DNA of 64,000 nt, from the IMG/VR virus record IMGVR_UViG_3300025401_000016, positions 1 through 64,000 of that record; one strand, 5' to 3'. Within the stretch, counting starts at the first letter, position 1. Each line of letters opens with the position of its first letter. Below the pieces are notes generated by a model. It was not told where the DNA came from and ran no database searches. It worked only from the letters and a program-made list of their open reading frames with translations. This document shows positions 7,949-44,200 of this stretch, one piece after another. Source of the DNA: a virus. The translations under genes were made by a program, and so were the position numbers.

Positions 7949-8656
7949 TTAATTTGCATAAATTACCGCATGTATTTTATAGTTAACTAAATTATTAACC
8001 AATGGATCAACTAATAATTCAATATATCCTAAATTATATGCAACTGAAAAATCACCTACACCAGGACTAGTAATAGGTACATCAATTGTACTAAATTCTA
8101 AGTATCCTACTTCTGATCCTAAAACAGTAGCGATCAATTTTGATGTTTGTCTATTATTACCAACTGGATCAGTTGCGATTACTGTATAGTCAATAGAACT
8201 AACAGAGAAAGAACTCAACTGATGTAGCTTTTGTCCTGTAGCATTAGTTGTTGTATTTGCAATGAGACCAATAGTTGTTGCTACTGTATTTGCACCAATT
8301 CCCAATTGAGAGTATGTTGATATTACAGGTCCGTTAACTGTAAAACTATTGCTTAAATTGTTAAAATTTATACCGGCTGCACCAGATATCACACCATTGT
8401 TATTATACATAACATCTGTGTTATTACCAGGGGCAATGATTGAACCGTTTACATTACCATTCAAATTACCAGTATATGAATTAGCAACAACATTTCCTGT
8501 AATAACTGTATCACCGGCGATTACTGCACTTCCGGCTATGGTAATGTTACCAATAACAGCAGACGGTGCTGTTATAGCACCAGTAGAATCTATTACTTGG
8601 ACTGGAGGTATCCCTATTGAATAACCCCCTACAGAATTGAATGCGTCAAGTGCCAT
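7949..8656 (-). CDS. Virion structural (decoration/fibre-like) protein
   Basis: First gene after the capsid terminator, with its own late box. N-terminus FNSVGGYSIG is paralogous to FNSAGGYSVG of the next gene. Confidence 0.65.
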   Translation of the reverse strand: MALDAFNSVGGYSIGIPPVQVIDSTGAITAPSAVIGNITIAGSAVIAGDTVITGNVVANSYTGNLNGNVNGSIIAPGNNTDVMYNNNGVISGAAGINFNNLSNSFTVNGPVISTYSQLGIGANTVATTIGLIANTTTNATGQKLHQLSSFSVSSIDYTVIATDPVGNNRQTSKLIATVLGSEVGYLEFSTIDVPITSPGVGDFSVAYNLGYIELLVDPLVNNLVNYKIHAVIYAN

Positions 8657-8685
8657 GAATATCCCTGAATTATATTTTTATTACT

Positions 8686-8693
8686 TATTTATC
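8686..8693 (-). promoter_or_regulatory. T4-type late promoter
   Basis: GATAAATA on the minus strand ~30 nt upstream of ATG 8656. Confidence 0.6.
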
Positions 8694-8717
8694 AATTTTT
8701 AACATTAGCTATCCAAC

Positions 8718-8741
8718 AAAAAAGGCTCCGTAGAGCCTTTT
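8718..8741 (-). terminator. Rho-independent terminator of the major capsid gene
   Basis: Minus strand AAAAGGCTC-TACG-GAGCCTTTTTT (cUACGg tetraloop plus U tract), ~45 nt after the gp23 stop. Confidence 0.85.
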
Positions 8742-8784
8742 AAGTAAACTTCCCATCCCGAGGGTAAAAAGTTTTTCTTTCCTA

Positions 8785-9987
8785 TTATTGGAAAGACAAT
8801 GTGTTAGCGATTGCGATCTCACCCAAATAATCAGCTGCATTACCAAATGATGATGCAGTATTTGTCAATTCGATGTAACCATAACGTGTCATGAATGATA
8901 CGACTGGTTCGAATGTTGATGGATCTAAAACAACACCAGAACTCATCAAAGGAATATATGGGCAATAGAATGCTGCTGCATCTGTCTCGCTTGTACCTTT
9001 GTATCCAACCAATACTGGTTGTGTATCTGATGCGTAGCTATTAACGAATACACGCATTGCACCATTCAATGTACCAACTAATTTTGTATTTGTTGGAGCT
9101 TCGAATGTACCTTCTGTTGTACGTGCAAAAGCCGAAGTAGTTGCAGATTGCAATACTGTCAAAGCTGCTGGACTTACAACTGCCCAGTTACCTGCGCCAC
9201 GACGTGTGCGTTGAGCAATCAAGTTAGCAACACGATTAATCAATACTGCTAAAGCTGCATGCTCGTCACCAACGAAAGTAGCTGTACCAGATACTGTAGC
9301 TTGGTTATATGTGTACTCAGTTGTAGCCAATGTTGATAGGCTCAAAAGAATCTCTTGGTCAATCTCAGCAGTAATCTCTTGTGCAAGAGCTGCCATGATT
9401 TCTGCCTCAACGTCAATGCCATGTTGTGATTGTGCGTCTTGAGCAGCTTCAAATGTCCAACGTGCTTGCAACTTACGTGATTTAGCTTCAACAGCTTGAC
9501 GTAGAATTTGTACGCTGATTTGCTTACCGCCATTACCTTCTAATACAGATGTATTAGCACCAGTATATGCAGTTGCAGAAGTGTTATCTCCTGAAGCTCT
9601 TGTTGAATAAGCTTGAGCAATTTTGAATGGGCTTAATGCCTCTTCACCTGCAGTAACTGATGTTCCTGCTGCACTATTGTCGGATAAGTTATTTGCATAA
9701 CGTACACGTAGTGTGTGAATTTGACCAACTGGTCCTGTCATTGGCTGAACACCAACCAACTCGTTAGCGATAACTGTTGGCATGACACGACGGATAACTG
9801 GAAGAATCACACGGTTTAATGTAGCGATGTTACCAGATGTTGTTGTACCAGCTGAAGACTCAGATAGTAGTGATTTGCGAGTATTCTCAAGAATAACTTG
9901 CATTGTTGAACGGCGATTACCTTTAAGACCTTCAAGTAGGGCTTCTTTGGTCTCGTCCCAACGACCTTCTAATAGAACTTGTGACAT
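8785..9987 (-). CDS. gp23: Major capsid protein (T4 gp23 family)
   Basis: LPVIRRVMP..IANELVGVQPMTGPVGQI, VEAKSRKL.A.WT.E.AQD, EITAEIDQEI, AAFYCPYIPL, F.TRYG motifs. Confidence 0.97.
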   Translation of the reverse strand: MSQVLLEGRWDETKEALLEGLKGNRRSTMQVILENTRKSLLSESSAGTTTSGNIATLNRVILPVIRRVMPTVIANELVGVQPMTGPVGQIHTLRVRYANNLSDNSAAGTSVTAGEEALSPFKIAQAYSTRASGDNTSATAYTGANTSVLEGNGGKQISVQILRQAVEAKSRKLQARWTFEAAQDAQSQHGIDVEAEIMAALAQEITAEIDQEILLSLSTLATTEYTYNQATVSGTATFVGDEHAALAVLINRVANLIAQRTRRGAGNWAVVSPAALTVLQSATTSAFARTTEGTFEAPTNTKLVGTLNGAMRVFVNSYASDTQPVLVGYKGTSETDAAAFYCPYIPLMSSGVVLDPSTFEPVVSFMTRYGYIELTNTASSFGNAADYLGEIAIANTLSFQ

Positions 9988-13561: not shown

Positions 13562-15364
13562 TCACATATTTGGTGAACCAGCAGGAGCTCCTGCTCCACC
13601 TGCTGGCATCGCTTCAGGTCCTGCTACTGCAGCACCCAATTCATTAGGTGGCATTTCTTGTCCTGGTTGTGGAGCAAGATTTTCCATATTGTCTTTATCA
13701 GTTTCCAAGTCACCCGGACTTATACCAATACTACGTAAGTCACTACCTGATGTTTCACTATCTTCTGGCTTCTCACGTTCTTCAAACCACATACTTTGAT
13801 TCTTTTCAATTTCTTCTTGTGTTAAGCCTAAGAAACGTTCCATTGCAAAACGTTTTGCAATATACGGAAATGCTTCCATAGTTTGAAATACTGAAACACG
13901 TGCATTATCTAATTCACTTTGTCGATATGCGGCAAAGTTTTGCGGTGGATTGAATGTAATGTCAAACAAACTTGAATCAATATTAAACCCTCTCCAACGC
14001 ATGAATAACTTAAACTCTTCATTCAATTTCTTACTCATGTAGTTTTGCAAACGTTCACAATATTGATTAAAGCGAAACTCTTGAATCATGGCTGTACCAA
14101 CACGACCATCGCTCAACGGAGTTGGACTATCTTCTGGTCCTTGAGGTAAATATGAACTTGGGACACGTAAACCACGTGCTAATCTATTATTGAAATAACG
14201 TAAGTCATCAATTTCACCCAAATTCTGACCACCGGGTAATGTCGTAACTGTACTTCCGCGCCCATCAGCGGTTTGTGGGAAAAAGTAATCTTCGTTCATA
14301 CTTAATGGATTATATGTAGCATCCATTATACTTGCACCACCTTGTACACTTGGGATGCGTCTTTGATGAATTTCATTTTTAATACGATCTACAAACGCCA
14401 TAGCCATGTGGCTTGGCATATTACCTACGTCAATCGTAAATACCCTACGTTCTGGGGCACGTTGTACACGATAGATTAGAATCGCATCTTCAAGCAATTC
14501 TTTTTGTTTATATACTTTAAAAATATTTTCTAAAACTGATTGTCCAAAAGGCCAATATCTATCTAAACCTTCCGTCAAGCTTAGATGTACGACATGTTTT
14601 GCATCTATTGCGGCTTCATTTAATCCTAGTCTAAAGCGACTTCCAGCAGTCCCATTTGGCATACTAGGAACTGTATAACCTTGAGCAGAACCACCGCCAC
14701 CTGTACCACCAAAGCCAGTTGCAGGGCTCATTGCAAAGTCTGTGCTAACTTTTTCAGCAATACTTAAGTTTTGTAAATTTGGATTAATATCTTTGATAAC
14801 ATACTGTTCTGGGAGCTTTCCTTCGCTCTCATTAACAATAACTTTAGTCACTTTAGTCATATCAACCCAGTATAACTTAAAGTTTTCTGGATCTCTTACG
14901 AATACTTGATCACCGTATTTGATTGTATTACGGAAGATTTTGAATGCTCTAGTATCAAATTCATTGAGTTTACACCACTGTTGTAGTTGTGTTTTAATAA
15001 TATTAACTTCATGTGGTGTTGGATCTTCTGTGAATATTATCTCAAAAGGTGTCTTGTTTTGTTCGTTTTTTTGTGTACTGAACTCAGCAATAATGTCTAA
15101 ACATGCATTAATTTCAGCATCTACATCCATCATTTCATACTGATTATAGCGTTCAATACGATTTGGATGTCCTGTATACACCTCAGGCAAACGGCTTTGA
15201 TAATTTTTATATCCAAAATCATTATTATGATATTCTTCCGAACTACCTGAATTTTTATAATTTTTAGGCATACCATTCCAGGCGCCGTAATTGTTATTGG
15301 ATCCTGATATAGGACTTAGGGCGCCGGTTGTATTTGGGGCGGAAAAACGCTTTTTATATGACAT
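13562..15364 (-). CDS. gp20: Portal vertex protein (T4 gp20 family)
   Basis: LLEDAILIYRVQRAPERRVFTIDVGNMP, EDYFFP...GRGSTVTTLPGGQNLGEIDD motifs. Confidence 0.96.
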   Translation of the reverse strand: MSYKKRFSAPNTTGALSPISGSNNNYGAWNGMPKNYKNSGSSEEYHNNDFGYKNYQSRLPEVYTGHPNRIERYNQYEMMDVDAEINACLDIIAEFSTQKNEQNKTPFEIIFTEDPTPHEVNIIKTQLQQWCKLNEFDTRAFKIFRNTIKYGDQVFVRDPENFKLYWVDMTKVTKVIVNESEGKLPEQYVIKDINPNLQNLSIAEKVSTDFAMSPATGFGGTGGGGSAQGYTVPSMPNGTAGSRFRLGLNEAAIDAKHVVHLSLTEGLDRYWPFGQSVLENIFKVYKQKELLEDAILIYRVQRAPERRVFTIDVGNMPSHMAMAFVDRIKNEIHQRRIPSVQGGASIMDATYNPLSMNEDYFFPQTADGRGSTVTTLPGGQNLGEIDDLRYFNNRLARGLRVPSSYLPQGPEDSPTPLSDGRVGTAMIQEFRFNQYCERLQNYMSKKLNEEFKLFMRWRGFNIDSSLFDITFNPPQNFAAYRQSELDNARVSVFQTMEAFPYIAKRFAMERFLGLTQEEIEKNQSMWFEEREKPEDSETSGSDLRSIGISPGDLETDKDNMENLAPQPGQEMPPNELGAAVAGPEAMPAGGAGAPAGSPNM

Positions 15365-15381: not shown

Positions 15382-17937
15382 TTATCCCACATGGGTGGCT
15401 ATTTTATTACTGACATCAATAAGTGTACTTATTTCTGATGCTATAACTTGCAATTCATTTAAAAGATCACCTAAGTTAACACCGTCTCTGATTTGATTTT
15501 GTATTGGTTTTGTAGATTCATCTACTTTATTAGCTTTAGCTGTTGCATCTTCTACTATTTTTTGAACCAAGCTTGCTACTGCTTGATTGTCAACTTTTTG
15601 GTTTACTACGGGAACAGTTGGTGCAGATTTATTATCATTTGTATTATCAGCCGATGTCATAGGTGGGTTAGTTAACTCCCAATGCACAGGATCTTTTTTA
15701 GGAAAGGGTTGTGTAAATCCTTTTTCTTGTAATAATTTACGAATTTCAGGATGTTTATATAGATACTCAGTTGGTACGTCTATTGCTTGACCTGTTTCAT
15801 GTTTGCTTGCACCTGGTTCAGCTACTGGATTAGGATTATTTCCTCTATTTTTATACAATTGTTCTTGTTGCTCATGAGTTCTAAATCCACCATATGTCCC
15901 AATTGGTATATTGTATTTTTTTGCAAATTCATTAATTGTTAAACCATCTACTAATCCTGTTTGATTAGGTTTTTGCTCTGTTGGTTTATTTTCAGGTAAA
16001 TTGTTTGTTTGGTTTGGCGCCGGTGTAGTATCAGTTGATTGTTTATTCTCATCTTCTTTTTTTTCCAAAGCTAAATATTTATTAGCCTTCTCTACCAATT
16101 GTTTACTTTTATAGAGTGCTAATTCATTATCTCTTTGATCTGCTCGTATCTCATTTATTTTTTGATTGAATGTCTTTACATCCTCATCGTATGCCCTGAT
16201 ACCAGGACCGTAACCATTCGCTTTTAGTTTTTCTAGACTATCTATTTTCTCTTTTACTGCTTTATTATATTTTTCTTGTAATTCGTTTTTTTCTTTTTCT
16301 AATTCTTTTTTTGTTTGTGCTTCTTCATCTATTACTGTATTAGCATCTTTTGTTGACTCAATTGTTCTCCATAAATCTGTAAAATCTATTTTACCAAAAG
16401 TTATAAATTTAACAAATTTAGCAAGGCCGTATGAAGCATTATCCAACATATCAGTAAATTTTTTGATAATATCCATTGATGTTTCAAATGTGCTATCTGC
16501 AAGTTTGTCTAGTTTTTGCCTCGCTATCATACTATCATATTCTGCCTGAGCAGCTTTTATTACTTTTGGATCACCTTTTCTTTTAGCTTCTTCTAAATTA
16601 GCTTTTGCCACTAATACACTACTCATATTTCTTAATTTATTTTCTGCTTCCATTGTCTGTAATGTAGTACCTAGTGCAGCTCCGGCTTCATTACTTGCTA
16701 ATGCAGTTTCTCTATTTGCTCTATTATTTGCAGCCAACGCCGGTAGTGTTTGCTTTTTTAGTACATCAGCCATACCTAAGAATGCGTTACCACCGCCACG
16801 TACAACGTTTTGAAATCCAACAATGGTAGGTAACAATAGTCTTTGATAATTTGCTGCTAATTCAGTAGTTGCCCTACCGCCGTTTGCAATCAATGACATA
16901 GCTGCAGCACTCATTGTTGTACCAACTTGTTCTTGCATCAACAACATTGCGTTACTTGCTTGTTGTGCTAATGCAGGACCATTTGGTCCTGACTCTCTGA
17001 GTTTTTGTAGATATATTTGAAAATCTAAACTTGCTTGTTGTTCTTGTATTTTTTGTTGTGCAACATCTTTGCTCTGACCAGTTAACTGACTTAGTTCAGT
17101 TAATTGTTCAATATATTCTTTTGTTTTTGCAGTTACATCTGCTATATTATTAGATTCTAATTTACCAAATTTAGTTTGGTTTGCGATACTTAGTCCGGCA
17201 AATTTTATAATTTCTTGTTCAGTTACGCCCAGTGCTTTGAAATCAAAAAAATTATCTTTATCTGTTAATAAATGTTTTACTACCTGTTCAAAGTTTTTTC
17301 CACCTGCTGTAATGCTACCACCAAATGCACCTAAATCAGGCGCAATTCCCCTAAGTGTATTAGCAAAAAACGCTAAATTTTCTGATGATGAGCCTGTATC
17401 AATCTTAAGTTCTTGCATCAAGTTGGAATAATTACCAAACTCATCAACTATATTAGTAAATCTAACACCAACATCACTTAGTGTGTTATAAGTTTTTAAG
17501 TACTCATCATTGTTCTTCAATCCTAAGGCAACAAGACCACCAAATACTTTAATGAGTTCACCGGCAACAACACCTAAAAGTCCTAATTTTGATGTCATTG
17601 ATGCAATTGTGTCCGTAACACCTTCAACTGCACCGCCATATTTACCAACACCCTGTTCAGAACTGACCATCGCAGATCCAAAACGTTTGGTCAATGCGAC
17701 TAGTTGTTCAGTTGCAAGAGTAAGATTTGACTTTGATTTCTCTTCTTTTTTGGATGCCTCAGTTACACCTTCGGCAGCCCGATCTAGATCATTGAGTTCT
17801 TTACCAAAAGAGCCGGCGTGTTTACCAATAACTTTAAAAGCTTTTTCTAGGTCATTGGCTGCATCCTGATTACCTTCAACTAGTCTTTTAACAAATTCAT
17901 TGAATTCACGGGACACATCTTCATTATTATCTGCCAC
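15382..17937 (-). CDS. Tape-measure-like protein with C-terminal M15 (VanY-like) peptidase
   Basis: Long Ala/Leu/Gln-rich helical body, then GFRT..QQ..LY...PGASKHETGQAID...DPVHWE. Start GTG 17937 (AAGGA RBS) preferred over ATG 17970. Confidence 0.75.
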   Translation of the reverse strand: MADNNEDVSREFNEFVKRLVEGNQDAANDLEKAFKVIGKHAGSFGKELNDLDRAAEGVTEASKKEEKSKSNLTLATEQLVALTKRFGSAMVSSEQGVGKYGGAVEGVTDTIASMTSKLGLLGVVAGELIKVFGGLVALGLKNNDEYLKTYNTLSDVGVRFTNIVDEFGNYSNLMQELKIDTGSSSENLAFFANTLRGIAPDLGAFGGSITAGGKNFEQVVKHLLTDKDNFFDFKALGVTEQEIIKFAGLSIANQTKFGKLESNNIADVTAKTKEYIEQLTELSQLTGQSKDVAQQKIQEQQASLDFQIYLQKLRESGPNGPALAQQASNAMLLMQEQVGTTMSAAAMSLIANGGRATTELAANYQRLLLPTIVGFQNVVRGGGNAFLGMADVLKKQTLPALAANNRANRETALASNEAGAALGTTLQTMEAENKLRNMSSVLVAKANLEEAKRKGDPKVIKAAQAEYDSMIARQKLDKLADSTFETSMDIIKKFTDMLDNASYGLAKFVKFITFGKIDFTDLWRTIESTKDANTVIDEEAQTKKELEKEKNELQEKYNKAVKEKIDSLEKLKANGYGPGIRAYDEDVKTFNQKINEIRADQRDNELALYKSKQLVEKANKYLALEKKEDENKQSTDTTPAPNQTNNLPENKPTEQKPNQTGLVDGLTINEFAKKYNIPIGTYGGFRTHEQQEQLYKNRGNNPNPVAEPGASKHETGQAIDVPTEYLYKHPEIRKLLQEKGFTQPFPKKDPVHWELTNPPMTSADNTNDNKSAPTVPVVNQKVDNQAVASLVQKIVEDATAKANKVDESTKPIQNQIRDGVNLGDLLNELQVIASEISTLIDVSNKIATHVG

Positions 17938-17948
17938 AATTTTATCCT

Positions 17949-17980
17949 TATAAATACGATTACGGTACATAGTATTTATA
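17949..17980. promoter_or_regulatory. Pair of face-to-face T4 consensus late promoters
   Basis: TATAAATA on plus at 17949-17956 and on minus at 17980-17973. Confidence 0.85.
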
Positions 17981-18000
17981 GTAAAAAATAGGAGCTAAAA

Positions 18001-18828
18001 ATGGAATCATCAAACCCACTACAACAATATTTTCGTAGACCATCAATTTATTTGAAATTACCCAGTCAGGGTCAGGGATACCCTGAGGGTGCAATCGATC
18101 TTCCTGAAAATTTAGAGATTCCTATATATCCCATGACTGCTATCGATGAGATAACTACTAGAACTCCTGACAGTTTATACAATGGTATGGCTGTAGTAGA
18201 ACTTATTAAAAGCTGTGCACCCAATATCAAAGATCCATGGAGTATACCATTAACTGATTTAGATCCAATATTAGTTGCAATACGTATTGCTACAAACGGT
18301 ACCTTTATGGAGATAGATACTAGTTGCCCAAGTTGCAGCGAAGGTGCAAAATTTGATCTTAATTTAACCGCAGTACTGAATGATTTTCAAGCAGGTGACT
18401 ATAGCACACCGTTGACCATTGGAGATTTAAACTTTAAGTTTAGACCTTTACAATACAGAGAAATCAATGAAACGAATTTAATACAATTTGAAGTTCAAAA
18501 GTTGATTAGTATAGTGCAACAAACAGAAGATCAAGAATTAAAAAATCAAAAAACACAAGAATTGTTACTAAAGATCAATGGGATCGCTTCCAGTGTTATA
18601 ACCAAAACCATTGAATACATACAAACACCAAATAGTACTGTGTTTGAAAAAGAGTATATTAAAGAATTTTTAGATAACTGTGATAAGAATACATTTGAAA
18701 CTGTAAAAGACTTTTCTGTAAAAATCAGAGAACTATCTGAAAATAAACCACTGGACATTACTTGTACTAGTTGCCAACACCAATATAAACAATCATTTGC
18801 TATTAACCCATCAACTTTTTTCGAATAA
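18001..18828 (+). CDS. gp26: Baseplate hub / tail assembly chaperone (T4 gp26-like)
   Basis: P.IYLKLPS.G, P+TA.DE, D+D.IL+AIR.A+ and two CxxC pairs (CPSC, CTSC); AGGAG RBS. Confidence 0.8.
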   Translation: MESSNPLQQYFRRPSIYLKLPSQGQGYPEGAIDLPENLEIPIYPMTAIDEITTRTPDSLYNGMAVVELIKSCAPNIKDPWSIPLTDLDPILVAIRIATNGTFMEIDTSCPSCSEGAKFDLNLTAVLNDFQAGDYSTPLTIGDLNFKFRPLQYREINETNLIQFEVQKLISIVQQTEDQELKNQKTQELLLKINGIASSVITKTIEYIQTPNSTVFEKEYIKEFLDNCDKNTFETVKDFSVKIRELSENKPLDITCTSCQHQYKQSFAINPSTFFE

Positions 18829-18868
18829 GGCTCCATTCTTTAGACTCCGAGGGAATCAAGGGCCTTAT
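18816..18868 (+). other. Putative -1 ribosomal frameshift signal
   Basis: In-frame slippery heptamer T TTT TTC (18816-18822) one codon before the stop; hairpin ATAAGGCTC(18825-33)/GGGCCTTAT(18860-68) with inner ATTCTTT/AGGGAAT. Confidence 0.75.
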
Positions 18869-19052
18869 CGCACAATACGAAAAAGAATGTGATGATATCA
18901 AGACTGGAGCAATGAAAATGGCTTGGTATATGAGAGGTAGTGTATCATATACTGACATACTCAACATGAGCATATCTGAGAGAAAAGCCATAAACAAATT
19001 GATTGATGATAACTTAGACACTACTAAGAAGTCCGGACTACCATTCTTCTAA
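18822..19052 (+). CDS. gp51-like ORF, probably the -1 frameshift extension of gp26
   Basis: The -1 frame is open from the slippery site to TAA 19050-52: RIRLHSLDSEGIKGLIAQYEKECDDIKTGAMKMAWYMRGSVSYTDILNMSISERKAINKLIDDNLDTTKKSGLPFF. First ATG only at 18912/18918. Not in the ORF track. Confidence 0.75.
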   Translation, partial: RIRLHSLDSEGIKGLIAQYEKECDDIKTGAMKMAWYMRGSVSYTDILNMSISERKAINKLIDDNLDTTKKSGLPFF

Positions 19053-19100
19053 AATATTTTTATTTTATCCATAGTTATTCATTTATCATAACTTAGGGTT

Positions 19101-19174
19101 ATCTTTAAAGATTACCTTCGGTAATCTAATACCTTCACTCATACTTCGCTTCGCTCAGTCTATCGTTCGGTATT
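19101..19174 (-). other. Hairpin cluster with cGAAg/GCGAAGC triloops (possible ssDNA origin or primase signal)
   Basis: AGATTACC-ttc-GGTAATCT (19109-27); AATACC/GGTATT stem (19128-33/19169-74) enclosing GCGAAGC on the minus strand (19154-48); palindrome ATCTTTAAAGAT. Confidence 0.45.
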
Positions 19175-19224
19175 GTTTTTATTCACATCTATTCTTTTTT
19201 GTACTTTATTTCTTTTAGGAATAC

Positions 19225-19590
19225 TTGCCGATTTGACTCCATGGTAGTGCTGTTTCAGCACTACCAAAAGTTTTGATCTTGCACGACCGTCATCCTTGCC
19301 ATCTGTTCCCCACATGATCAGCTATTATTGCTATCACGTGCCACCGGTTGCTCTGTAAGGTTCTTTATGGGATTGTAGTTGAATATACGTCCGTTCAGTT
19401 AGGATTTCATTCAGCAACGCATGTTTTATATCATCAAGATAGAATAGATATAAACTCATTGAAGGTTCGCTTTGACGATTGCCTTCTCGGTGTTTCATAG
19501 TCACAAGTATGTGACTACGCTGACTCCAGAATCTGACGGCACAGCACGATCTGTACAATCTCAAGGAGAGCTAACAAACTTAGCTAACGA
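19225..19590 (-). ncRNA. Large structured non-coding RNA-like element, family unassigned
   Basis: GC-enriched gap with at least six local hairpins and four 6-7 bp long-range complementarities, two of them crossing; a G-U versus A-C asymmetry favours the minus strand. Confidence 0.65.
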
Positions 19591-19594
19591 ATTG

Positions 19595-20173
19595 TCAAAC
19601 TGTTAGAGTTAAAATGTTATTGGACTTTGTGTCTGTTTGGCTAAGTGGTTTTGACTTTGTGTCTGTGGAGCCTGCGTATGCTCTAACGAGTTCTTTGTTT
19701 AATTTGAAGAAACTATCAAATTCAGTGATTACCCAATCACCATGTTTTTTACTAACATAGAAAAAAAGATTGTCTATAGTCCATGTTAGTTTGGGTTGTA
19801 CTGCAATGTAACGTCCAATACGATTGAACTTCATTATAAGCATGTTCAAATCGCCATCATCTTCTACATCAAGTAATTGTTCTATCCAACTGTCTATTAT
19901 CTTACATTCGCCTGATAATAGCAAGTGAAAAGGGAAGTCTGCATATGACTTGCACTCGCAATTAAATTTAATCCAAGAATCAGGGGCTATTATATCTCCC
20001 TTAAAGGACTTAGCTTGATTTCCGTCTAAAAAGTTTTTTCGGTGAGAATTGGATCCTCCGATATATGCACCTGAATTAGGAACACGAACAAAAGGCTCGC
20101 CGTACGTTTCACTAAGAAATTTTGCAATTTCCCTTTCATACGAGCTACCTTTTGTTTTACTTTTTGAAGACAT
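19595..20173 (-). CDS. Holliday junction resolvase, PD-(D/E)xK Hjc-type
   Basis: KG.SYEREIA..L...RVPNSGA...GDII...ECKSY motif; adjacent to gp46/gp47. Confidence 0.8.
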   Translation of the reverse strand: MSSKSKTKGSSYEREIAKFLSETYGEPFVRVPNSGAYIGGSNSHRKNFLDGNQAKSFKGDIIAPDSWIKFNCECKSYADFPFHLLLSGECKIIDSWIEQLLDVEDDGDLNMLIMKFNRIGRYIAVQPKLTWTIDNLFFYVSKKHGDWVITEFDSFFKLNKELVRAYAGSTDTKSKPLSQTDTKSNNILTLTV

Positions 20174-35288: not shown

Positions 35289-38200
35289 ATGGTAACAAGA
35301 ACTAGAACGATTGATTTCTTACCAGAAATTTTTCAAACACGTACCAACCAATTATTTTTAAATGCAACATTGGATCAACTTGTCCAACAGCCTGACTTTA
35401 AAAAAGTGCAAGGTTTTATTGGTAGTAAGTTTGGTTACGGAGTAAAAAGCACAGACACATATCTCGTAGAACCAGATAGTGTTAGAAACAATTATCAATT
35501 AGAACCCAGTGTTGTATTTCAAAAAACTGGTACCAGTCAGGCAATAGATTTAATTACCTATCCTGGCATCATTGATGCACTTAGAACTGAGAGTGGAATT
35601 AATGTCAGTGATAACAAACTTTTTAATAATCAATTTTATAGTTGGGATAGTTTTGTTGATTTAGATAAAATTATTAATTATGGACAATACTATTGGATCC
35701 CAACAGGTCCTGAAAGTGTAAACATAACAACAGAAAAGTTGTTACTAGATAGCACATATACTATTATCAACAATCCTAATACATATGATTTTTCAATCAA
35801 TGGTGCAACACCTATTGTTGGAAATCCAGAAATAACACTAGTCCGCGGTGGTACTTATACTTTTCTAGTTAATCAAGATACACCCTTTTATATTCAAACT
35901 ATGCCTGGCATCAGTGGTGTAGATCCTACAAAAACAAATGTAAGCACAAGAGAAATATACGGAGTCACCAATAACGGCGTGCCAAATTCTGTGATGACAT
36001 TTACAGTACCAATGGCAGATGCAGAAGATGGATATCGCTATCCAGTGGGCATAACTATAGATGTAGTTACTACATTAGATTTTAATCAAGTCAATGGACA
36101 GTATGTATTTGCTATTGATGGTGTAACAGATTTAGAGAATAAACTATTGATGTTCTATGGTCAAGATCCAAACGCTACTAGTTCAGTAGATGGTAGTATT
36201 CTCAATCAAAATCTATATAGAATTAATTATGTACCAACAAGTGATCCTTTACAGTTTTTAATTCAATTGACTGCTTATACATCAATACCAACAGAAATTC
36301 GCATTGATGCTAATTCAGGTAAACAGTTTATTGGTAAAAGTTTTGTTAAAAATGCAGTTGGTGAAATTATACTATTGCCACAAATCACATCAAATCTAAA
36401 CACATTGTATTATGTCGATGGCACCAATGATAAAAAATACGGTATCATTAAATTGGTTGATGATGTTTTTAGTAGTGTATTAAATGTAAATGATATATTA
36501 GGTAGCACAAATTATGTAAGCCCAAATGGTATTACATTTAGTAATGGATTAAGAGTTACTTTTACTGGGTCAGTATATCCAGAAAATTATTTGAATGATA
36601 GTTATTATGTTGAAGGAGTAGGCACTAGCATTAATTTAATACCTAGTAGTCAGCAAATTGTAACAGAACCGTTTGGTCAGTATATTGATCAACCTTTTGA
36701 TGAGGCATATTTTGGTACAACACCATTTGATAATAGTAAAGACTTGCCTAACGTTCAAGACTATATAACAATCAATCGTAACTCACGTGACAAAAATGCA
36801 TGGAGTCGTAGCAATTGTTGGTTTCATGTTGATGTATTAAAAACAATTGCTAACAACAATAATATTAGTCCTATTGCAAGCGCTGCACTAGCCAGTACCA
36901 CAAATCGTGCAAAACGTCCTATCATTGAATTCTATCCTAATCTAAGATTATTTGATCATGGAATCAATGGTAAAGATACAATCGATTATTTTGACAATAT
37001 TACTCCAAATGCATTGTCTACTATAGCAGGTGGATCATTAAATGTATATTATCCTGATGGCCCAACAAGTGCACTATTTGATGGTGCTAGAGTTGTTTTT
37101 GCTGCAGACAACGATATCAATGTTAGAAATAAAATATATACTTGCCATGTAGCAACTATCAACAACAAACAAATCATAACATTGAGTGTTGCATTCGATG
37201 GTAATATCGAATACTTAGACAATGTACATGTATCTAGAGGTGAATCAAATGCAGGCTATAGTTTTTACTTTGATGGTAACCAGTGGTTAAATTGCCAAGA
37301 AAAACAAACAGTAAATCAATCACCTTTGTTTGATTTGTTTGATAAAAATGGTAACAGTTTAAGTGATCAAGAATACTATCCTGGTAGTGATTTCAAAGGT
37401 TGCACATTATTTGAGTATCTATTGGGATCAAATCCATTAGATCCAGTACTGAACTTACCTATTAGCTATAGCGGAGTAGGTAATTTAAATGACATTGTAT
37501 TTCAAACTTCATTGAATGCAAATACATTCAATTATGTTATAAACAATACCAGTTATAATGAACAAGTAAACATTGGTTATGTACACTCATATGATAAAAA
37601 CAATCAATTGGTAAGAAAAATTGGGTGGAATACTGCGGTTGAACGTAGTTTTCAATATCAAATTTTTAACTTTGTGTATAATTCTGTAACAATGCCTAAT
37701 GGTCCTATATTTGTTGCTGATGTAATGATTAAAGATAGTATGTCAACAATGTGGCCCACTATTGTAGTCTATGTTGACAATTCAGTTGTTGATAGTACTA
37801 ATTATACAGTTACAAATACAAATGATACAACTTCAATTACAATAACATCAAGTATCAGTGATGGTACACACGTTGATATTATGTTATATAGTGATCAAAC
37901 TAGTAATATAGGATACTATGATATACCAACTAATTTAGATCACAATCCATTCAATGAAACCATCACTACTCTTACAAGTGGTGATATCAGAGGACATTAC
38001 AAAAGTATTTGTAACAATTTAGCAGGTAATTTAATTGGTACTAGTTTTGGTGCAAACAACTATAGAGATTTAGGTGATGTTACAGGTTATGGAACAAGAA
38101 TCATACAGAATAGTAGTAGTTTACCTATTGCCGCTGCTTTTATTCGTAAACAAAGTGCAAACTTCTTTAATGGTTTAATATACAATAGCAATGAATATGT

Positions 38201-41200
38201 AAAATTTAAATCAACATTGGTTTATACTGTAGATCAACAAAATTATACACCATACGATAGTGCCGCATATATGCTAGATGATACATTGAGTATCATGGTT
38301 GGGGTAAAATCACCAGATAACAGCTTCTTCTGGAGTGATATGATACCTAATCAGAATCCAACCATTAGTAATAGCTATGCGTTTAGAATTGGTTTAAGTA
38401 AAGCATTATTCCCATTATCTAGAGTATATGATTTTACAGTTGCAAATTATTATGGTGTATTAGCATATGTTAATAGAACAGTAGACGGATTGCCTGTACA
38501 ATTACAATTAGCAAAAGATATTGATTATGTTATTGTAGACAATTATCTTGAAATTATAGTACCATTAAATGACGGTGATGTAATTACGGTTAATGAATAT
38601 GACCAAACATATGGTAGTTATATACCTAATACTCCTACTAAGTTAGGATTTTATCCAAAGTACGTACCTACAGTTATATTAGATGATACATATTCAACAC
38701 CTACATATTTTATCATTGGGCATGATGGAAGTTATACTAAGTTGTACGGTGAATACAATAACGGACTGTTACAAGATTTCCGTGACAAAGTATTATATGA
38801 ATTTGAATTGCGTGTTTACAACAACATGAAAGTAAACACTACATTTGCAATTCAGCCAAATGATATTCGTCCTGGATTCTTCAGAGATACAGGTTACTCA
38901 TATGATGAGTACATGTCAATTTATACTACCAACTTTTTAAATTGGGTTGGATTAAATCGTATTAATTATACTAATCAGTTCTATGATAGTACTGATGATT
39001 ACACATATAATTATAATACTGCAATCAGTAGTTTAAGTAATACAACATTCAACAGTGGTAATTGGAGAGGTATATTCTTAAATCTATATGATACTTGCAA
39101 TCCACATGATAGACCATGGGAGATGTTAGGCTTTGTTATAGAACCAAGTTGGTGGCAAACACGTTATGGTGCTGCACCATATACAAGTGATAACTTATTG
39201 TTATGGACAGATTTAAGTAATGGATTCATTTACAACAATGGTAATAGTTATATTGATAAAAACTATGTAAGAGATGGATTACTAAAAATTATTCCAGTTG
39301 ATGAGAATGGAAATCTATTAAGTCCATTCAGAATCAAAGGATTGATTAAGCGTTATAAAATCACTGATTTCAAAAATAATTGGAGTGTAGGTGATGTTGG
39401 CCCTGCTGAATATAGTTATATAAAAAGTAGCTCATACCCATTCGATTTAATGCGTATATACGCATTACTAAAACCAAGCGATTTCTTTTGTTTAGGTTTA
39501 GACTTAGATGGCTACCGATACAATACTGAGTTCAACCAATTTTTAACTGATGATCGCTATAGAACATCATTGACAAATATTAATGTATATGGGAATGGTC
39601 AAGGCTTAGCCAGATCACTGCAGGATCAGTATGCAAAGCATAGTTATTTGAATTGGTTAGTTGATTATCTCAATCAATATGGTGTTGGTAGTAGTGAAAC
39701 TATTGCAAATACATTGGCAAGTCTAGATGTTAGATTAGCATATAGAATGGCTGGATTTAGCGATCAAAATCAACTACAATTTTTAATTGAAAAAGGTAGT
39801 CCAAATAGTACTAGCAATTCATTATTGATCCCGGACGATAGCTATAGTATATTGTTGTACCAAAACGAACCTAATGACATCATTGTTTATAGCTCTGTTA
39901 TTGTGCAGAAAACACTAACAGGATATAAAGTATTTGGTAACAGTCAAAACAAAGCATACTTCTTAAGTTATGCACCTTACTATAACAACCTAGTAAACCC
40001 AATCACAGTAGCTAACACAACAGTTAATATCCCAATAACTTACACAACAACTGTGATTACTACTCCATATGGAACAGAATTCTCTAGTGTACAATTATTA
40101 TGTGAATTCTTAAAAGGATATGGTAATTATTTAGAATCTCAGGGTATGCAATTTAATGACATTGAAAATAATGTTGCTATTACATGGGATCAAATGATTG
40201 CTGAAATATTGTATTGGTATAACAGTGGATGGGAAGTTGGTAGTACTATTAATGTTAACCCAAATGCAAATACACTTACAATTGATACTGGAAGTACAGT
40301 AGTTCAACCTCTTACCGATTATACACATAATTTTGTATTGAATCAAAATTTGGTTCAATTTCCATTAGAAAGTCTAGCAATCACACGTATTGATACACAG
40401 TTTACTGTAAAATCATTAAGTCAAGCCGACGCTATAAGTTATTTTAAGAGTACATTGAGTAGCGTAGAACATGCAGTTGTATTCAATAATGTAACTGTGT
40501 TTAACGATGTTGTGTTTAACTTACTTACTGGATTGAGACAACAACGACTTTATCTAAGAGGCACAAAGAGCAATAATTGGAATGGTACATTGTACGCACC
40601 TGGCTTTATCATCAATCAAAGTAATGTAGAACCTTGGACTCCAAATACGCAATACTACAAAGGTGATACAGTATTGTATAAAAATAGTTACTACATGGCT
40701 AACATTCCTGTGATAATTCCAAGTGACGTATTTACAGCTAGTAATTGGATTAAAACCCAGTACCAAAATATACATAAGGGGTTAATTGCTAATCCAAATA
40801 CCAGAGCCAGTGAAAGTCAATTGTATTATGACACACATTCTAGTAATTTACAAAATGATGCGGACTTGTTAGGATATTCATTGATTGGATATAGACCCAG
40901 ATCGTATCTAAGTGATATTAATCTAACGGATCCAAGTCAAGTTAATTTATATCAATCAATGATTGCACTTAAAGGTACTGAAAATGCACTAAACATATTA
41001 CAAAGTATTGATTTGAATGCGATTCAATTCAATTATAGTATGTACGAGAATTGGTTAGTACAAAAATCAGAATATGGTGGTATATTAAACCAAAACTTCA
41101 TTGAATTCACACTAGATGGTGGAATGTTAACTGGTAATCCAGCAATCGTTAGTGTCATTGTTGATAAACCAGTTAGTGCAAGTCAACAAGAAGTGCCACT

Positions 41201-44200
41201 ATATAGTCTAACCAATTACGGAAGACTATTAGATAATACAAATATATTGCCACTCAAGACAACTCAAAATACAAAAGGTCTACCAAGTGCAGGTTATGCT
41301 AACTTGAATGACACAACATACTATAGTTATAACTTAAATCAATTACCAAATAGTACAATTTATAATTTATACGGAGATGATTATATATACCTAGCCGATT
41401 CCAATGGTGATTGGGGTATGTATTGTGCAATACCTATCAAAGATGTAAGAGTAACACATGTCATTAATAATCTCAATGGAACAGTAACAATAACATTTAC
41501 TAAATCACCTTTACTAAATGTTGGTGATATGATTGGTATATTGAATTTTGATACTAGAGTGGATGGTTACTATACAATAGATGTAGTAGTAAACAATACC
41601 ACATACATCATAACATTAACATTAAGCAATAATGTGACACAGGTAACTAGTGGTACTGCATCGTTTGTATTCAATTTAGAATCTGTTAGACTTTCTAGTC
41701 CTATAGGATTGTTAAACCTAAGTTTACCATATGAGTACTCAAATAATTTAGTATGGGTAGATAGTGATAAAAATAACAATTGGGCAGTACTAGAGAAAAG
41801 TTTAAATTATACTAAACAAAATTTCTTAGGTAGCATCAGTGGTAATGAAACATACGGTGATAGTGTTAACTATGTACCGGGAGTAGGTTATGTTGTTGGT
41901 GATAGTACATTAGGTAATGTGTATACCTATGCAAAAACAGACAACGGATACATACTAAGAAATACAATTTCACATACTCCACCTTTTGGTAAAACCATTG
42001 CTAGAAATGATGAGTTTTTATTAGTTTCTAGTCCAGATAGTTCACTAACATACATCTACATATATAGAATTGTTCAATCACCTGAGATTGAAGCATTGGT
42101 TCCAGAACAAATACTTAGCTTTGCATTGGATACACCTGTTGGTAATACAATGACTGTATCCGGTGACGGGCAGTTGTTGTTTTTAAGTATTGATGGATAT
42201 AGAACAAACAGTTTGTCTGATACCTGGGTGATTCCTCCTACTGTATTAGTATATAAACGCAATCCTTCATATACATATCAACACATTAAATCTACACAAG
42301 AAATTACAATCAATGGTACACCAGTGTACGAATTGATGCGTTTATCTGAAGCAACATTACCTGATAAAAAGTATTTCAAAGTAATGGGTGATCAAACTGT
42401 TAATGGTGATATTCATACAGGTGCTAGAGTAACATTCTATCAATATACACAGTTTGGTACATCATCAATATATTCATTTGGTTATATACCACAAGCATAT
42501 ACTAAACCTGCAGTTGTTGTGACAGGTGGTAGTGGCACTAGTGCGTCATTTGATGTAACTCTAAATCAAACACGATATACTGCTGCTATACATGCAGCTG
42601 GTACAGGTTATACAGTTAATGATATATTGACTATACCTTATACTATTTTAGATGGCTTAAGTACAACAAATAATTTAGTAATCAAAGTAGTAACAGTCAG
42701 TAGTACCGGCCAAATAACAAGTGCAAGTATAGTTTCTGGTGTTGCAAACGGATATAATTTAAATACAGATCCTGCTGATTCTCAATCAGTATTATTTAAA
42801 GCAACCGGATTCCCAAATTCAAGTAATAATTACTTACAACAATATAGAAAATATTATTTGAAATTAACAGGTACTATCCCAGTTGGTACAGTAATTAGTT
42901 TTGACCCTACTGCTGATATTGTGGATTATACATTGACTGCAAATAACACATATTATGGTACTTTGTTGACAGGTATAACTGCTACAAATAAAGTAAGCAC
43001 AAGCGGAACAGGTACAGTAAAATTTGATGTAGATGTAAATGGAGCAACATATTTAAATGCAACACCAAGTCTTGGTTACTTAGGAACTGGTTATGCAGTA
43101 AATGATACATTAACTATATTAGGTTCTAGTTTAGGCGGTGTTGATACAACTAATGACTTAGTTTTACAAGTTACTGCAATTGGTACCTCGGGTAGTATAG
43201 CACAAGTTGAAATAGTATCTGGTACAGCAGTATCCTCTGAATATACAACATTATATCTTGATAACAGCAATTTACAAGCAACATTGTTTGCAGAAACATT
43301 CATTGCATTAGATTACGGACCTAGCCATGTATCATCTTACATATTATCTGACACTAGTAATGCAGTATATGTATATAAAAACATGTTGCCAAATTATGTA
43401 ACAATAATCACATCAAAGTATGATATTATAAGTGATGTGACTACATATTTTACAGTAGAATATATTGGTTATAGTGTCACTGGAGTCAATACATATGTAA
43501 GATCGGTTAACAATCAGTTTTCATTGGTTGGTAATTTAAATAACGCAATATCACAAGACCCTGCAACAGGTTTATATTCATTAGGTCAAGTACCTACTAA
43601 TAGCTTTGGAAGCAGTATTGCTAATAGCTATAATGGGGATAAGTTGTTTATTGGATCCCCCACAAGTAATTTCAATGATGCAATTGCAAATGTTGGATAT
43701 GTTTATATATACACACGTTTGAGCGAAACTTGGGAAGTTCAGTATGATGTTGCAAGTACTGATTTTTATACTTTGATATTACCTTGGGTACCAGACCCAA
43801 GCAGTTCAGTATACATTAATGGAGCTATGTTAGAGACAAATCAATATGTAGTATTGAACTTATTGTCACAAGGTTGTTTCTTATTGATAGGACCTCGTGT
43901 ACATGCAGGCGATATCATTACATTAAGTAGCCCAAACTTTGTATTAGATGCAAGAATAGCCAGTTATGATTCATTGGCACAATTACATCAAGGGCAAAAA
44001 TTTGGTTCAAGTTTAGCATGTAATATTTCAGGTAGTGAACTATTAGTTGGTACTCCATATGATGTAACTGTTAAGGGCCAAGAAGGTGCAGTATACCGTT
44101 ATACAAATGAAGGTAAAAAGTTTGGTACAATAACTGCACTGATTGCTGCAAACAATCAATTAGGTGCAACTTATATATTGTTGAATGGCTATCGTGTTAC

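What the first reader, a model, noticed from the sequence alone, without database searches (positions are those of the whole stretch)
18816..19052. Probable -1 programmed frameshift making a gp26-gp51 fusion (lambda G/GT-like) in a T4-like phage
Seen: a correctly phased X XXY YYZ heptamer (T TTT TTC) at the very end of gp26 and a two-part hairpin directly 3' of it (9 bp + 7 bp with G-U pairs). The -1 frame stays open for 76 codons, and its first 30 codons have no ATG. Predicted products are 275 aa and 350 aa. Known: long-tailed phages make tail chaperones G and GT by such a frameshift next to the tape-measure gene, whereas T4 gp26 and gp51 are treated as separate genes. Inference: gp26/gp51 here are the G/T equivalents. 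Caveat: GGAG at 18906 could start a 44-aa protein at ATG 18918.
Basis: partly seen in the sequence, partly recalled or inferred. Interest (0 to 1): 0.8.

Follow-up and report, generated by a model that had tools for sequence, protein, structure and literature searches.

The report
Frameshift in phage baseplate-hub chaperone gene
One tail-baseplate assembly gene of this uncultured giant T4-related phage very probably makes a 275-residue and a 350-residue protein because some ribosomes slip back one base on a strictly conserved TTTTTTC, doing with one gene what phage T4 does with its two related genes 26 and 51.

Summary
The gp26-like hub gene (18001-18828, Pfam T4_baseplate) ends ACT TTT TTC GAA TAA. 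T_TTT_TTC (18816-18822) is in phase. A two-part hairpin follows. The -1 frame is open for 76 codons to 19052 and has no start codon in its first 30.

Comparison with relatives makes a programmed -1 ribosomal frameshift the best reading (about 85%).
- All 201 distinct relatives examined keep T_TTT_TT(C/T) at this spot. They span three metagenomic clades and 15 cultured jumbo phages, down to about 25% protein identity.
- The base before the run is always T, although that codon encodes ten different amino acids.
- The 0-frame stop lies 1-14 codons downstream, while the -1 ORF always starts at the heptamer and keeps its length and sequence.
- No start codon is conserved.
- The hairpin covaries within the window's clade.
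- The extension folds confidently as a helical domain.

T4 gp51 is itself a gp26 paralogue with a C-terminal tail, and the frameshift product aligns with it end to end. Complete jumbo genomes have one such gene; T4 has two. Equivalence to lambda G/GT is an analogy only: no chaperone-like fold was found.

I found no published report. This scan has noted the same frameshift in at least 121 other genomes.

The parts
17949..17956 (+). TATAAATA, matching the T4 late-promoter consensus, 45 nt upstream of the hub gene start
   Evidence: Read directly from the sequence. That TATAAATA is the T4 late-promoter consensus is from my own knowledge. Not tested.
17990..17994 (+). Shine-Dalgarno AGGAG, 6 nt before ATG 18001
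   Evidence: Read from the sequence.
18001..18828 (+). gp26-like baseplate-hub assembly gene, 0 frame. It gives the short product of 275 aa, ending ...STFFE.
   Evidence: Pfam PF12322 T4_baseplate, 63 bits (cut-off 24.5), and phrog_150 'baseplate hub'. AF2 model pLDDT 94.9. BFVD fold matches are to T4-like baseplate hub and assembly proteins.
18816..18822 (+). Slippery heptamer T_TTT_TTC, in phase, with Phe-Phe in the ribosomal P and A sites
   Evidence: It is invariant (TTTTTTC 197, TTTTTTT 4) in 201 distinct relatives. The preceding wobble base is always T, while that codon encodes 10 different amino acids.
18823..18828 (+). Spacer: GAA plus the 0-frame stop TAA
   Evidence: In the window's clade the conserved stem starts 6 nt after the heptamer.
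18826..18867 (+). Two-part stimulatory hairpin. Outer stem 18826-33 with 18860-67 (plus 18823-24 with 18868-69). Inner stem 18835-41 with 18850-56. Loop 18842-49. Bulges at 18834 and 18857-59.
   Evidence: Fold of -15.6 kcal/mol. In 58 relatives 80.4% of cells are paired, against 39-54% when the partners are slid. There are 61 double-change cells against 30 expected (0 of 500 shuffles). Mean z = -2.6 in this clade.
18822..19052 (+). -1 frame extension: 76 codons plus stop (RIRLHSLDSEG...GLPFF). It is joined to residue 274 to give the long product of 350 aa.
   Evidence: protein conservation starts at the first codon. pN/pS is 0.33-0.49 in this frame and 0.9-1.5 in the other two. AF2 pLDDT is 91.2, with four helices.
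15382..17970 (-). Divergent neighbour: an 862-aa protein with a VanY peptidase domain, a putative tape measure or tail lysin
   Evidence: Pfam VanY at residues 681-736. The RaK2 counterpart is annotated as similar to a tail tape measure protein, and the PA5oct and CBB counterparts as virion structural proteins. No similarity to T4 gp29. The assignment is an inference.

Best explanation
The hub gene is read in two ways.

Most ribosomes translate 18001-18825, add Glu and stop at TAA 18826. This gives a 275-aa gp26-like protein.

A fraction pauses with tRNA-Phe on UUU (P site) and UUC (A site), held up by the hairpin that begins 3-6 nt downstream. Both tRNAs slip back one base onto U_UUU_UU. Translation then continues in the -1 frame for 76 codons to 19052. 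The result is a 350-aa protein: the same 274 N-terminal residues plus a four-helix C-terminal domain.

The short form has the architecture of T4 gp26. The long form has the architecture of T4 gp51, a gp26-like domain with a C-terminal tail. T4 lists both as hub assembly chaperones.

Shown: the signal, its conservation, coding in the -1 frame, the covarying hairpin, and the gp26/gp51 paralogy.

Inferred: that slippage really occurs and at what rate; that the long form does what gp51 does; and that the pair acts on the neighbouring tape-measure-like protein as lambda G/GT does.
For: (1) The heptamer is phased and invariant in 201 distinct junctions: 197 TTTTTTC and 4 TTTTTTT. These come from the window's clade (65 distinct), two further IMG/VR clades (115 distinct) and 15 cultured jumbo phages. 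The cultured set includes Atu_ph07, Phosso, Ecwhy_1, PA5oct, SCTP-2, RaK2, CBB, Serratia BF and XacN1. Hub protein identity falls to about 25%.

(2) The wobble base before the run is T in 201 of 201, while that codon encodes D, S, N, T, H, A, Y, R, V or G. In the window's own long ORFs, TTT TTC is a minority Phe-Phe spelling (4 of 27).

(3) The 0-frame stop lies 1-14 codons after the heptamer. The -1 ORF, by contrast, always begins at the heptamer, is 72-91 aa long (78-79 in 110 of 111 complete metagenomic cases) and starts FFR.(R/K)LL.

(4) There is no conserved start.
- 0 of 65 have ATG/GTG/TTG in the -1 frame upstream of the heptamer.
- In 36 of 65 that frame is closed by TGA right before the heptamer.
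- ATG at the junction occurs in only 8 of 65; the other junction codons are TTA, CTA, ATA and GTA.

(5) pN/pS in the -1 frame is 0.48-0.49 upstream of the window's ATG and 0.33 downstream. In the other two frames it is 0.87-1.5.

(6) The hairpin covaries and folds better than shuffles in 93% of the clade.

(7) The extension is predicted as one folded helical domain from residue 2 on (pLDDT 91.2). Its long helix 11-39 spans the window's ATG codons.

(8) T4 gp51 is PF12322 plus a tail, and gp26 is PF12322 only. The frameshift-product profile aligns colinearly with the gp51 profile (33-364 to 8-259, E 1.5e-4), including the junction. The extension matches the gp51 tail at E 2e-5 and 7e-4.

(9) T4 has two PF12322 genes. 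The complete genomes of Atu_ph07, RaK2, PA5oct and CBB have one each.
Against: There is no experimental evidence: no peptide, western blot or reporter assay.

The hairpin is weak or absent by simple folding in one relative clade (mean z about 0), and RNAalifold returned no consensus structure.

The C-terminal Phe-Phe is also conserved in T4 gp26, where it is written TTC TTT and there is no frameshift. Part of the conservation is therefore protein-level.

About one relative in eight has an ATG overlapping the stop, which could allow translational coupling in those phages.

The homology of the extension to the gp51 tail is modest (hhalign probability 26-77%).

The CBB hub protein is annotated as a virion structural protein. 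This does not fit a pure chaperone.
Confidence: 0.85

Rival explanations
1. The extension is a separate small gene with no recoding. It would be translated from the internal ATG 18912 or 18918 (46 or 44 aa, GGAG at 18906), or by termination-reinitiation at a non-canonical codon beside the hub stop. The heptamer would then simply be how the conserved Phe-Phe is written.
For: GGAG lies 9 nt before ATG 18918. GenBank annotators call such small ORFs from internal ATGs. In Phosso, Atu_ph07, Ecwhy_1 and 8 of 65 clade members an ATG overlaps the hub stop (ATGA or TAATG), the classic coupling arrangement. Phe-Phe is conserved even in T4 gp26.
Against: The internal ATGs are not conserved: codon 33 in 21% and codon 35 in 51% of relatives. 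The junction codon is usually TTA, CTA, GTA or ATA. The 30 codons upstream of the ATG are under purifying selection in the -1 frame and belong to a confidently predicted helix. The always-T wobble base before the run, and TTT TTC in 197 of 201 junctions, are not explained by protein conservation.
Confidence: 0.06
2. The long form arises by transcriptional slippage. RNA polymerase adds one extra U on the T6 run, giving a subpopulation of mRNAs in which the extension is in frame.
For: The outcome, a shift into the -1 frame, would be the same. The always-T base lengthens the run. Ralstonia phage RsoM2USA has a T9 run, and the Xanthomonas and Stenotrophomonas phages have T7. From general knowledge, runs of about 9 do slip in bacteria.
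Against: In 197 of 201 junctions the run is only six T, closed by a conserved C. From general knowledge this is too short for efficient polymerase slippage. A covarying hairpin 6 nt downstream is the hallmark of ribosomal, not polymerase, slippage.
Confidence: 0.06
3. The extension is a non-functional remnant or a chance open frame. It would be a decayed gene fragment downstream of the hub gene that is not expressed.
For: No experimental data exist. Pfam has no family for the extension.
Against: It is conserved in length and sequence in more than 200 relatives, shows purifying selection, and gives a high-confidence fold.
Confidence: 0.02

Closest known systems
Phage T4 gp26 (208 aa) and gp51 (249 aa), hub assembly chaperones (Leiman et al. 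2010, PMC3004832, Table 2; Pfam PF12322 T4_baseplate)
   Same: The window's hub protein is a PF12322 member with the same two Cys pairs and the same C-terminal Phe-Phe. The short product has the gp26 architecture. The long product has the gp51 architecture (PF12322 domain plus C-terminal tail) and aligns with gp51 end to end. According to the review, gp51 is required for assembly but absent from the particle.
   Different: T4 encodes the two forms as two divergently transcribed paralogous genes and has no slippery site: gene 26 ends GAG TTC TTT GAG TTA CTA TAA. Here, and in complete jumbo-phage genomes, there is one gene. The extension (76 aa) is longer than the gp51 tail (about 48 aa), and their similarity is modest.
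Lambda gpG/gpGT and the conserved -1 frameshift of tail assembly chaperone genes in long-tailed phages (Xu, Hendrix and Duda 2004, Mol Cell 16:11; known to me, cited in PMC9024508)
   Same: There is a phased heptamer near the 3' end of the upstream frame. Short and long products share their N-terminus. The gene lies beside a tape-measure-like gene. The proteins take part in tail assembly.
   Different: The protein family is unrelated. No solved-structure match of any kind was found. The hub protein is twice the size of gpG and carries a zinc-ribbon-like pair of CxxC motifs. The gene is divergent from, not upstream of, the putative tape measure. Binding to the tape measure or the tube protein is untested.
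Phage P2 gpE/gpE+E' (Christie et al. 2002, J Bacteriol 184:6522; from memory, not read here)
   Same: A contractile-tailed phage with a -1 frameshift on a T-run heptamer (TTTTTTG) close to the end of the short frame, extending a tail chaperone.
   Different: The protein family and the Z base differ. P2 E is about 90 aa.

Membership tests
Programmed -1 ribosomal frameshift site | X XXY YYZ heptamer in phase with the upstream frame | tested here: met
   T_TTT_TTC at 18816-18822. Phased in all 201 relatives.
Programmed -1 ribosomal frameshift site | Stable RNA structure 5-9 nt downstream, supported by covariation | tested here: met
   A 17-bp two-part hairpin of -15.6 kcal/mol. In 58 relatives 80% of cells are paired against 39-54% when slid, with 61 double changes against 30 expected. 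The structure is weak in one other clade.
Programmed -1 ribosomal frameshift site | The -1 frame is open, coding and conserved from the shift site, with no start of its own | tested here: met
Programmed -1 ribosomal frameshift site | The trans-frame protein is actually made | not testable with these tools
   This needs a reporter assay, a western blot or a junction peptide by mass spectrometry.
Pfam PF12322 T4_baseplate (gp26/gp51 family) | HMM score above the gathering cut-off | tested here: met
   63 bits against a cut-off of 24.5, E 4e-17. The six-frame search of the record gave 62.6 bits.
Pfam PF12322 T4_baseplate (gp26/gp51 family) | Shared fold with annotated T4-like hub or assembly proteins | tested here: met
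   BFVD top hits have TM 0.88-0.92, E 1e-22 or better, and are named 'Baseplate hub assembly protein, bacteriophage T4-like'. Aeromonas phage 25 gp26 is also hit.
T4 gp51-type long form (PF12322 + C-terminal tail, PF28602 in the large database) | C-terminal tail homologous to that of gp51 | tested here: inconclusive
   hhalign of the extension against the gp51 family gives E 2.2e-5 (probability 76.5%) and E 7.3e-4 (probability 26%), in the same register each time. The fused profile is colinear with gp51 at E 1.5e-4. PF28602 gave no hit in the Pfam copy at hand. It is probably missing from that copy.
Lambda G/GT-type tail assembly chaperones | Gene located immediately beside the tape measure gene | tested here: inconclusive
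   The gene is adjacent to, but divergent from, the 862-aa VanY-domain protein. That protein's tape-measure role rests on annotation of relatives. It shows no similarity to T4 gp29.
Lambda G/GT-type tail assembly chaperones | Tail-assembly-chaperone fold | tested here: inconclusive
   Foldseek against PDB gave no match with E <= 0.001. VIA-align wide gave only helical-hairpin matches to residues 146-219. The PDB sequence profile search found nothing. The domains were not searched separately.
Lambda G/GT-type tail assembly chaperones | Binds the tape measure (short part) and the tube protein (extension), and is absent from virions | not testable with these tools
   No binding test was run. The CBB homologue is annotated 'structural protein', while T4 gp51 is absent from particles (PMC3004832).

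The most novel reading that the evidence does not exclude
The frameshifting single gene is the ancestral state of the whole T4 superfamily. On this reading, T4's genes 26 and 51 are a duplicated, 'hard-wired' short form and long form of it. They would then be the long-missing T4 counterparts of lambda G and GT, making the tail-chaperone frameshift universal among tape-measure phages. The low-abundance, 'catalytic' behaviour of gp51 would be explained as the legacy of a low-frequency frameshift product.
Probability: 0.4. Interest if true: 0.75.

Novelty: new member of a known kind. Interest (0 to 1): 0.6.

Why it matters
Programmed -1 frameshifting in tail-assembly genes is regarded as nearly universal in long-tailed phages. 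T4 and its relatives are the textbook group in which it was not seen. A strictly conserved frameshift in the gp26-type gene of giant T4-related phages would fill that gap, especially given that T4 gp51 is a gp26 paralogue with the architecture of the frameshift product.

It would also give the poorly understood T4 proteins gp26 and gp51 a testable rationale: two forms of one chaperone, made in a set ratio.

In practice, it corrects the annotation of hundreds of jumbo-phage genomes, several of them therapeutic candidates against Klebsiella, E. coli and Pseudomonas. In those records the extension is currently called a separate 'hypothetical protein' from an arbitrary internal ATG.

Tried and rejected
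- RNAalifold on the 58-sequence alignment returned an empty consensus. I therefore specified the structure by hand and counted pairs.
- Foldseek against PDB gave no match with E <= 0.001 for the extension or the hub.
- VIA-align against 48,161 chains gave only generic helical-hairpin matches, Z about 9 or below.
- The PDB sequence profile search gave nothing. An earlier scan note's statement that the shared part folds like lambda-type chaperones was therefore not reproduced.
- Rfam found no family at 18500-19800.
- No terminator-like site was found at 17800-19700.
- blastn of the locus against the phage collection gave no match.
- BLASTP of the 862-aa neighbour against T4 gp29 gave no similarity.
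- A 33-sequence hub alignment was too diverse to seed a locus search, so it was split into A6 and A7.
Representatives that end before the Phe-Phe motif, such as P0098 and P0168, could therefore not be inspected at DNA level.
- Nine literature searches found no report of this frameshift. One scan note says the 26/51 link was published in 2022. The only 2022 paper that my searches returned, PMC9024508, merely calls gp26 and gp51 proposed chaperones. Subscription journals are not covered.
- No complex-prediction job was run, because I make no binding claim that it could settle.

Full report
**What is in the window**

The ORF 18001-18828 (+) encodes a 275-aa protein. It belongs to Pfam PF12322 T4_baseplate (63 bits, cut-off 24.5) and to phrog_150 'baseplate hub'. 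A TATAAATA motif (17949-17956) and AGGAG (17990-17994) precede it.

The surroundings are those of a T4-related phage.
- A T4-type portal gene lies at 13562-15364.
- A divergent 862-aa protein with a VanY peptidase domain lies at 15382-17970.
- Giant ORFs of up to 5627 aa are present.
- The window is part of a 100.8-kb IMG/VR record that CheckV rates 28% complete. That implies a genome of roughly 350 kb.

**The observation**

The gene ends ...TCA ACT TTT TTC GAA TAA. T_TTT_TTC (18816-18822) is a phased X XXY YYZ heptamer, two codons before the stop.

The -1 frame is open from 18807 to 19052. From 18822 it runs 76 codons. Its first ATG/GTG/TTG is ATG 18912, at codon 31.

The RNA after the heptamer folds into a two-part hairpin:
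- 10 + 7 bp, three of them G-U;
- an 8-nt loop;
- -15.6 kcal/mol, z = -1.8 against shuffles.

On its own the heptamer is not remarkable in this AT-rich DNA.

**Relatives: the heptamer**

A tblastn search with the -1 frame translation hit jumbo phages from its first residues on, across the annotated end of their 'baseplate hub' genes.

I collected three sets.
- 65 distinct sequences of the window's own clade from IMG/VR.
- 115 distinct sequences of two further clades, seeded from a search of 1.8 billion protein representatives. That search found 1085 family members, nearly all ending 0-6 residues after a conserved Phe-Phe.
- 15 cultured phages: Atu_ph07, Phosso, Ecwhy_1, PA5oct, SCTP-2, Vibrio 2.275.O, RaK2, RAS14, RsoM2USA, CBB, Serratia BF, fHe-Yen9-04, 7t3, XacN1 and Xoo-sp13.

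Pooled, these give 201 distinct junctions, and every one has the phased heptamer: 197 TTTTTTC and 4 TTTTTTT. The wobble base before the run is T in all 201, although that codon encodes ten different amino acids. In the window's own genes Phe-Phe is mostly written TTC TTT; TTT TTC accounts for 4 of 27.

**Relatives: the two frames**

The 0-frame stop lies anywhere from 1 to 14 codons after the heptamer. The -1 ORF behaves differently.
- It always begins at the heptamer.
- It keeps its length: 78-79 codons in 110 of 111 complete metagenomic cases, and 72-91 in the cultured phages.
- It keeps its sequence from the first codon: FFR.(R/K)LL...E.I..L......IK.....W(Y/F)MRGG.SY.D......ER..I..I..N.E.TK....P(F/L)(F/I).

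No start codon is conserved.
- None of 65 has ATG/GTG/TTG in the -1 frame upstream of the heptamer.
- In 36 of 65 that frame is closed by TGA immediately before it (T GAT TTT TTC).
- An ATG overlapping the stop occurs in 8 of 65. Elsewhere the junction codon is TTA, CTA, GTA or, as in the window, ATA.
- The window's ATGs (extension codons 33 and 35) are present in only 21% and 51% of relatives.

Selection points the same way. pN/pS in the -1 frame is 0.48-0.49 for the codons upstream of the window's ATG and 0.33 downstream. In the other two frames it is 0.87-1.5.

AlphaFold2 with 101 sequences predicts the extension as one helical domain (pLDDT 91.2; helices 2-8, 11-39, 45-49, 53-73). Initiation at the internal ATG would cut the long helix.

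**The hairpin**

In an ungapped alignment of 58 clade members, the stem begins 6 nt after the heptamer. The spacer is therefore the last sense codon plus the stop.

For the two-part stem (columns 20-33 with 41-56), one search gives:
- 80.4% of cells paired, against 39-54% when the partners are slid by 1-3 columns;
- 61 cells with changes on both sides, against 30 expected (0 of 500 shuffles);
- inner pairs with three or four Watson-Crick types.

The window's own stem is shifted by one nucleotide on its 5' side.

Folding energies beat shuffles in 93% of this clade (mean z -2.6). The signal is weaker in a second clade (mean z -1.6) and absent in a third (mean z about 0), so the stimulator is not uniform across the family. 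RNAalifold gave no consensus, and Rfam has no matching family.

**Relation to T4**

In T4, genes 26 and 51 are divergent, and gene 26 is followed by gene 25. Gene 26 ends GAG TTC TTT GAG TTA CTA TAA, so Phe-Phe is kept but the sequence is not slippery.

The important point is that T4 gp51 is itself a PF12322 protein.
- gp51: PF12322 over residues 1-201, E 4e-52, plus a C-terminal tail.
- gp26: PF12322 only.
- On the 282-position phrog_150 profile, gp51 covers 13-280, gp26 covers 14-235 and the window's short product covers 3-232.

The extension profile matches the extreme C-terminus of the gp51 family in the same register in every test:
- BLASTP, weak;
- hhalign E 2.2e-5, probability 76.5%;
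- hhalign E 7.3e-4, probability 26%, with a broader alignment.

A profile of conceptually frameshifted products aligns colinearly with gp51 (33-364 to 8-259, E 1.5e-4). That alignment includes the junction, where FFR.RLL.L...EI lies on gp51's FKLLLNPDEIF.

T4 carries two PF12322 genes. The complete genomes of Atu_ph07, RaK2, PA5oct and CBB carry one each.

The review of T4 tail assembly lists gp26 and gp51 as 'hub assembly chaperones'. It states that gp51 is required for assembly but absent from the particle (PMC3004832).

The simplest reading is that jumbo relatives make a gp26-like and a gp51-like form from one gene by frameshifting, while T4 makes them from two paralogues. Which state is ancestral was not tested.

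**What is not shown**

There is no experimental evidence for the slip or for its frequency.

The analogy with lambda G/GT rests on gene logic and on the neighbouring putative tape measure. That neighbour's role is itself inferred from annotation of relatives, and it has no similarity to T4 gp29.

The hub model is confident (pLDDT 94.9). It matches only other gp26/gp51-type proteins in BFVD and nothing in the PDB. Membership in the lambda-type chaperone fold is therefore unproven.

CBB's homologue is annotated as a virion structural protein.

**Rivals**

- An independent small gene, or coupling at the stop. This is plausible only for the minority with ATGA or TAATG junctions. It does not explain the conserved wobble T, the coding upstream of the ATGs or the hairpin.
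- Polymerase slippage. A run of six T closed by a conserved C is short for this, and the spaced hairpin argues for the ribosome. RsoM2USA (T9) and the Xanthomonas-phage group (T7) leave some room for it.

I put -1 ribosomal frameshifting at about 0.85, the separate-gene and polymerase-slippage rivals at about 0.06 each, and a non-functional remnant at about 0.02.

**Novelty**

None of the 15 GenBank records inspected annotates a joined CDS. They call the extension a 'hypothetical protein' from an internal ATG.

Nine full-text searches found no report of this frameshift. The only 2022 paper that my searches returned (PMC9024508) merely mentions gp26 and gp51 as proposed chaperones.

This scan has already noted the same frameshift in at least 121 other genomes. 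One of those notes claims a 2022 publication, which I could not find.

The mechanism and the gene logic are a known kind. The protein family and the phage group are new for it.

Noticed in passing
window 15382-17970 (-): An 862-aa protein divergent from the hub gene. It has a VanY D-Ala-D-Ala carboxypeptidase domain (residues 681-736) in a long, largely helical protein. This is probably a tape measure with a cell-wall-degrading domain. Its counterparts in PA5oct and CBB are virion proteins detected by mass spectrometry.
   Followed up: partly
window 19053-19594: About 540 nt between the end of the extension and the PDDEXK/RusA-like resolvase gene (19595-20173, minus strand). It has no long ORF, no Rfam match and no terminator-like site. 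First-stage notes e1-6001236 and e1-6001237 propose structured elements here.
   Followed up: partly
L107 701-1576 (Yersinia phage fHe-Yen9-04, NC_042116): The gp26-like hub gene is annotated as 'Lead, cadmium, zinc and mercury transporting ATPase; Copper-translocating P-type ATPase'. This is probably a mis-transfer triggered by its CxxC motifs.
   Followed up: no
L104 about 1965-1980 (Ralstonia phage RsoM2USA); L103, L109, L110: At the same site RsoM2USA has a run of nine T. The Xanthomonas and Stenotrophomonas phages use T_TTT_TTT instead of T_TTT_TTC, and their -1 product starts FFY instead of FFR. This is a sub-lineage in which polymerase slippage is a more serious option.
   Followed up: no
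L018 7803-8429 (T4 gene 26) and 8480-9229 (gene 51): T4 gp26 ends EFFELL and gp51 reads ..FKLLLNPDE.. at the aligned place. Both resemble the trans-frame junction FFR.RLL of the jumbo phages. T4 gene 26 also has an annotated internal in-frame start (26'), a second way of making two related products.
   Followed up: partly
window 35289-52172 (+): A single 5627-aa ORF, followed by ORFs of 2238 and 1119 aa. These are very large virion or baseplate-fibre proteins, typical of RaK2-like jumbo phages.
   Followed up: no
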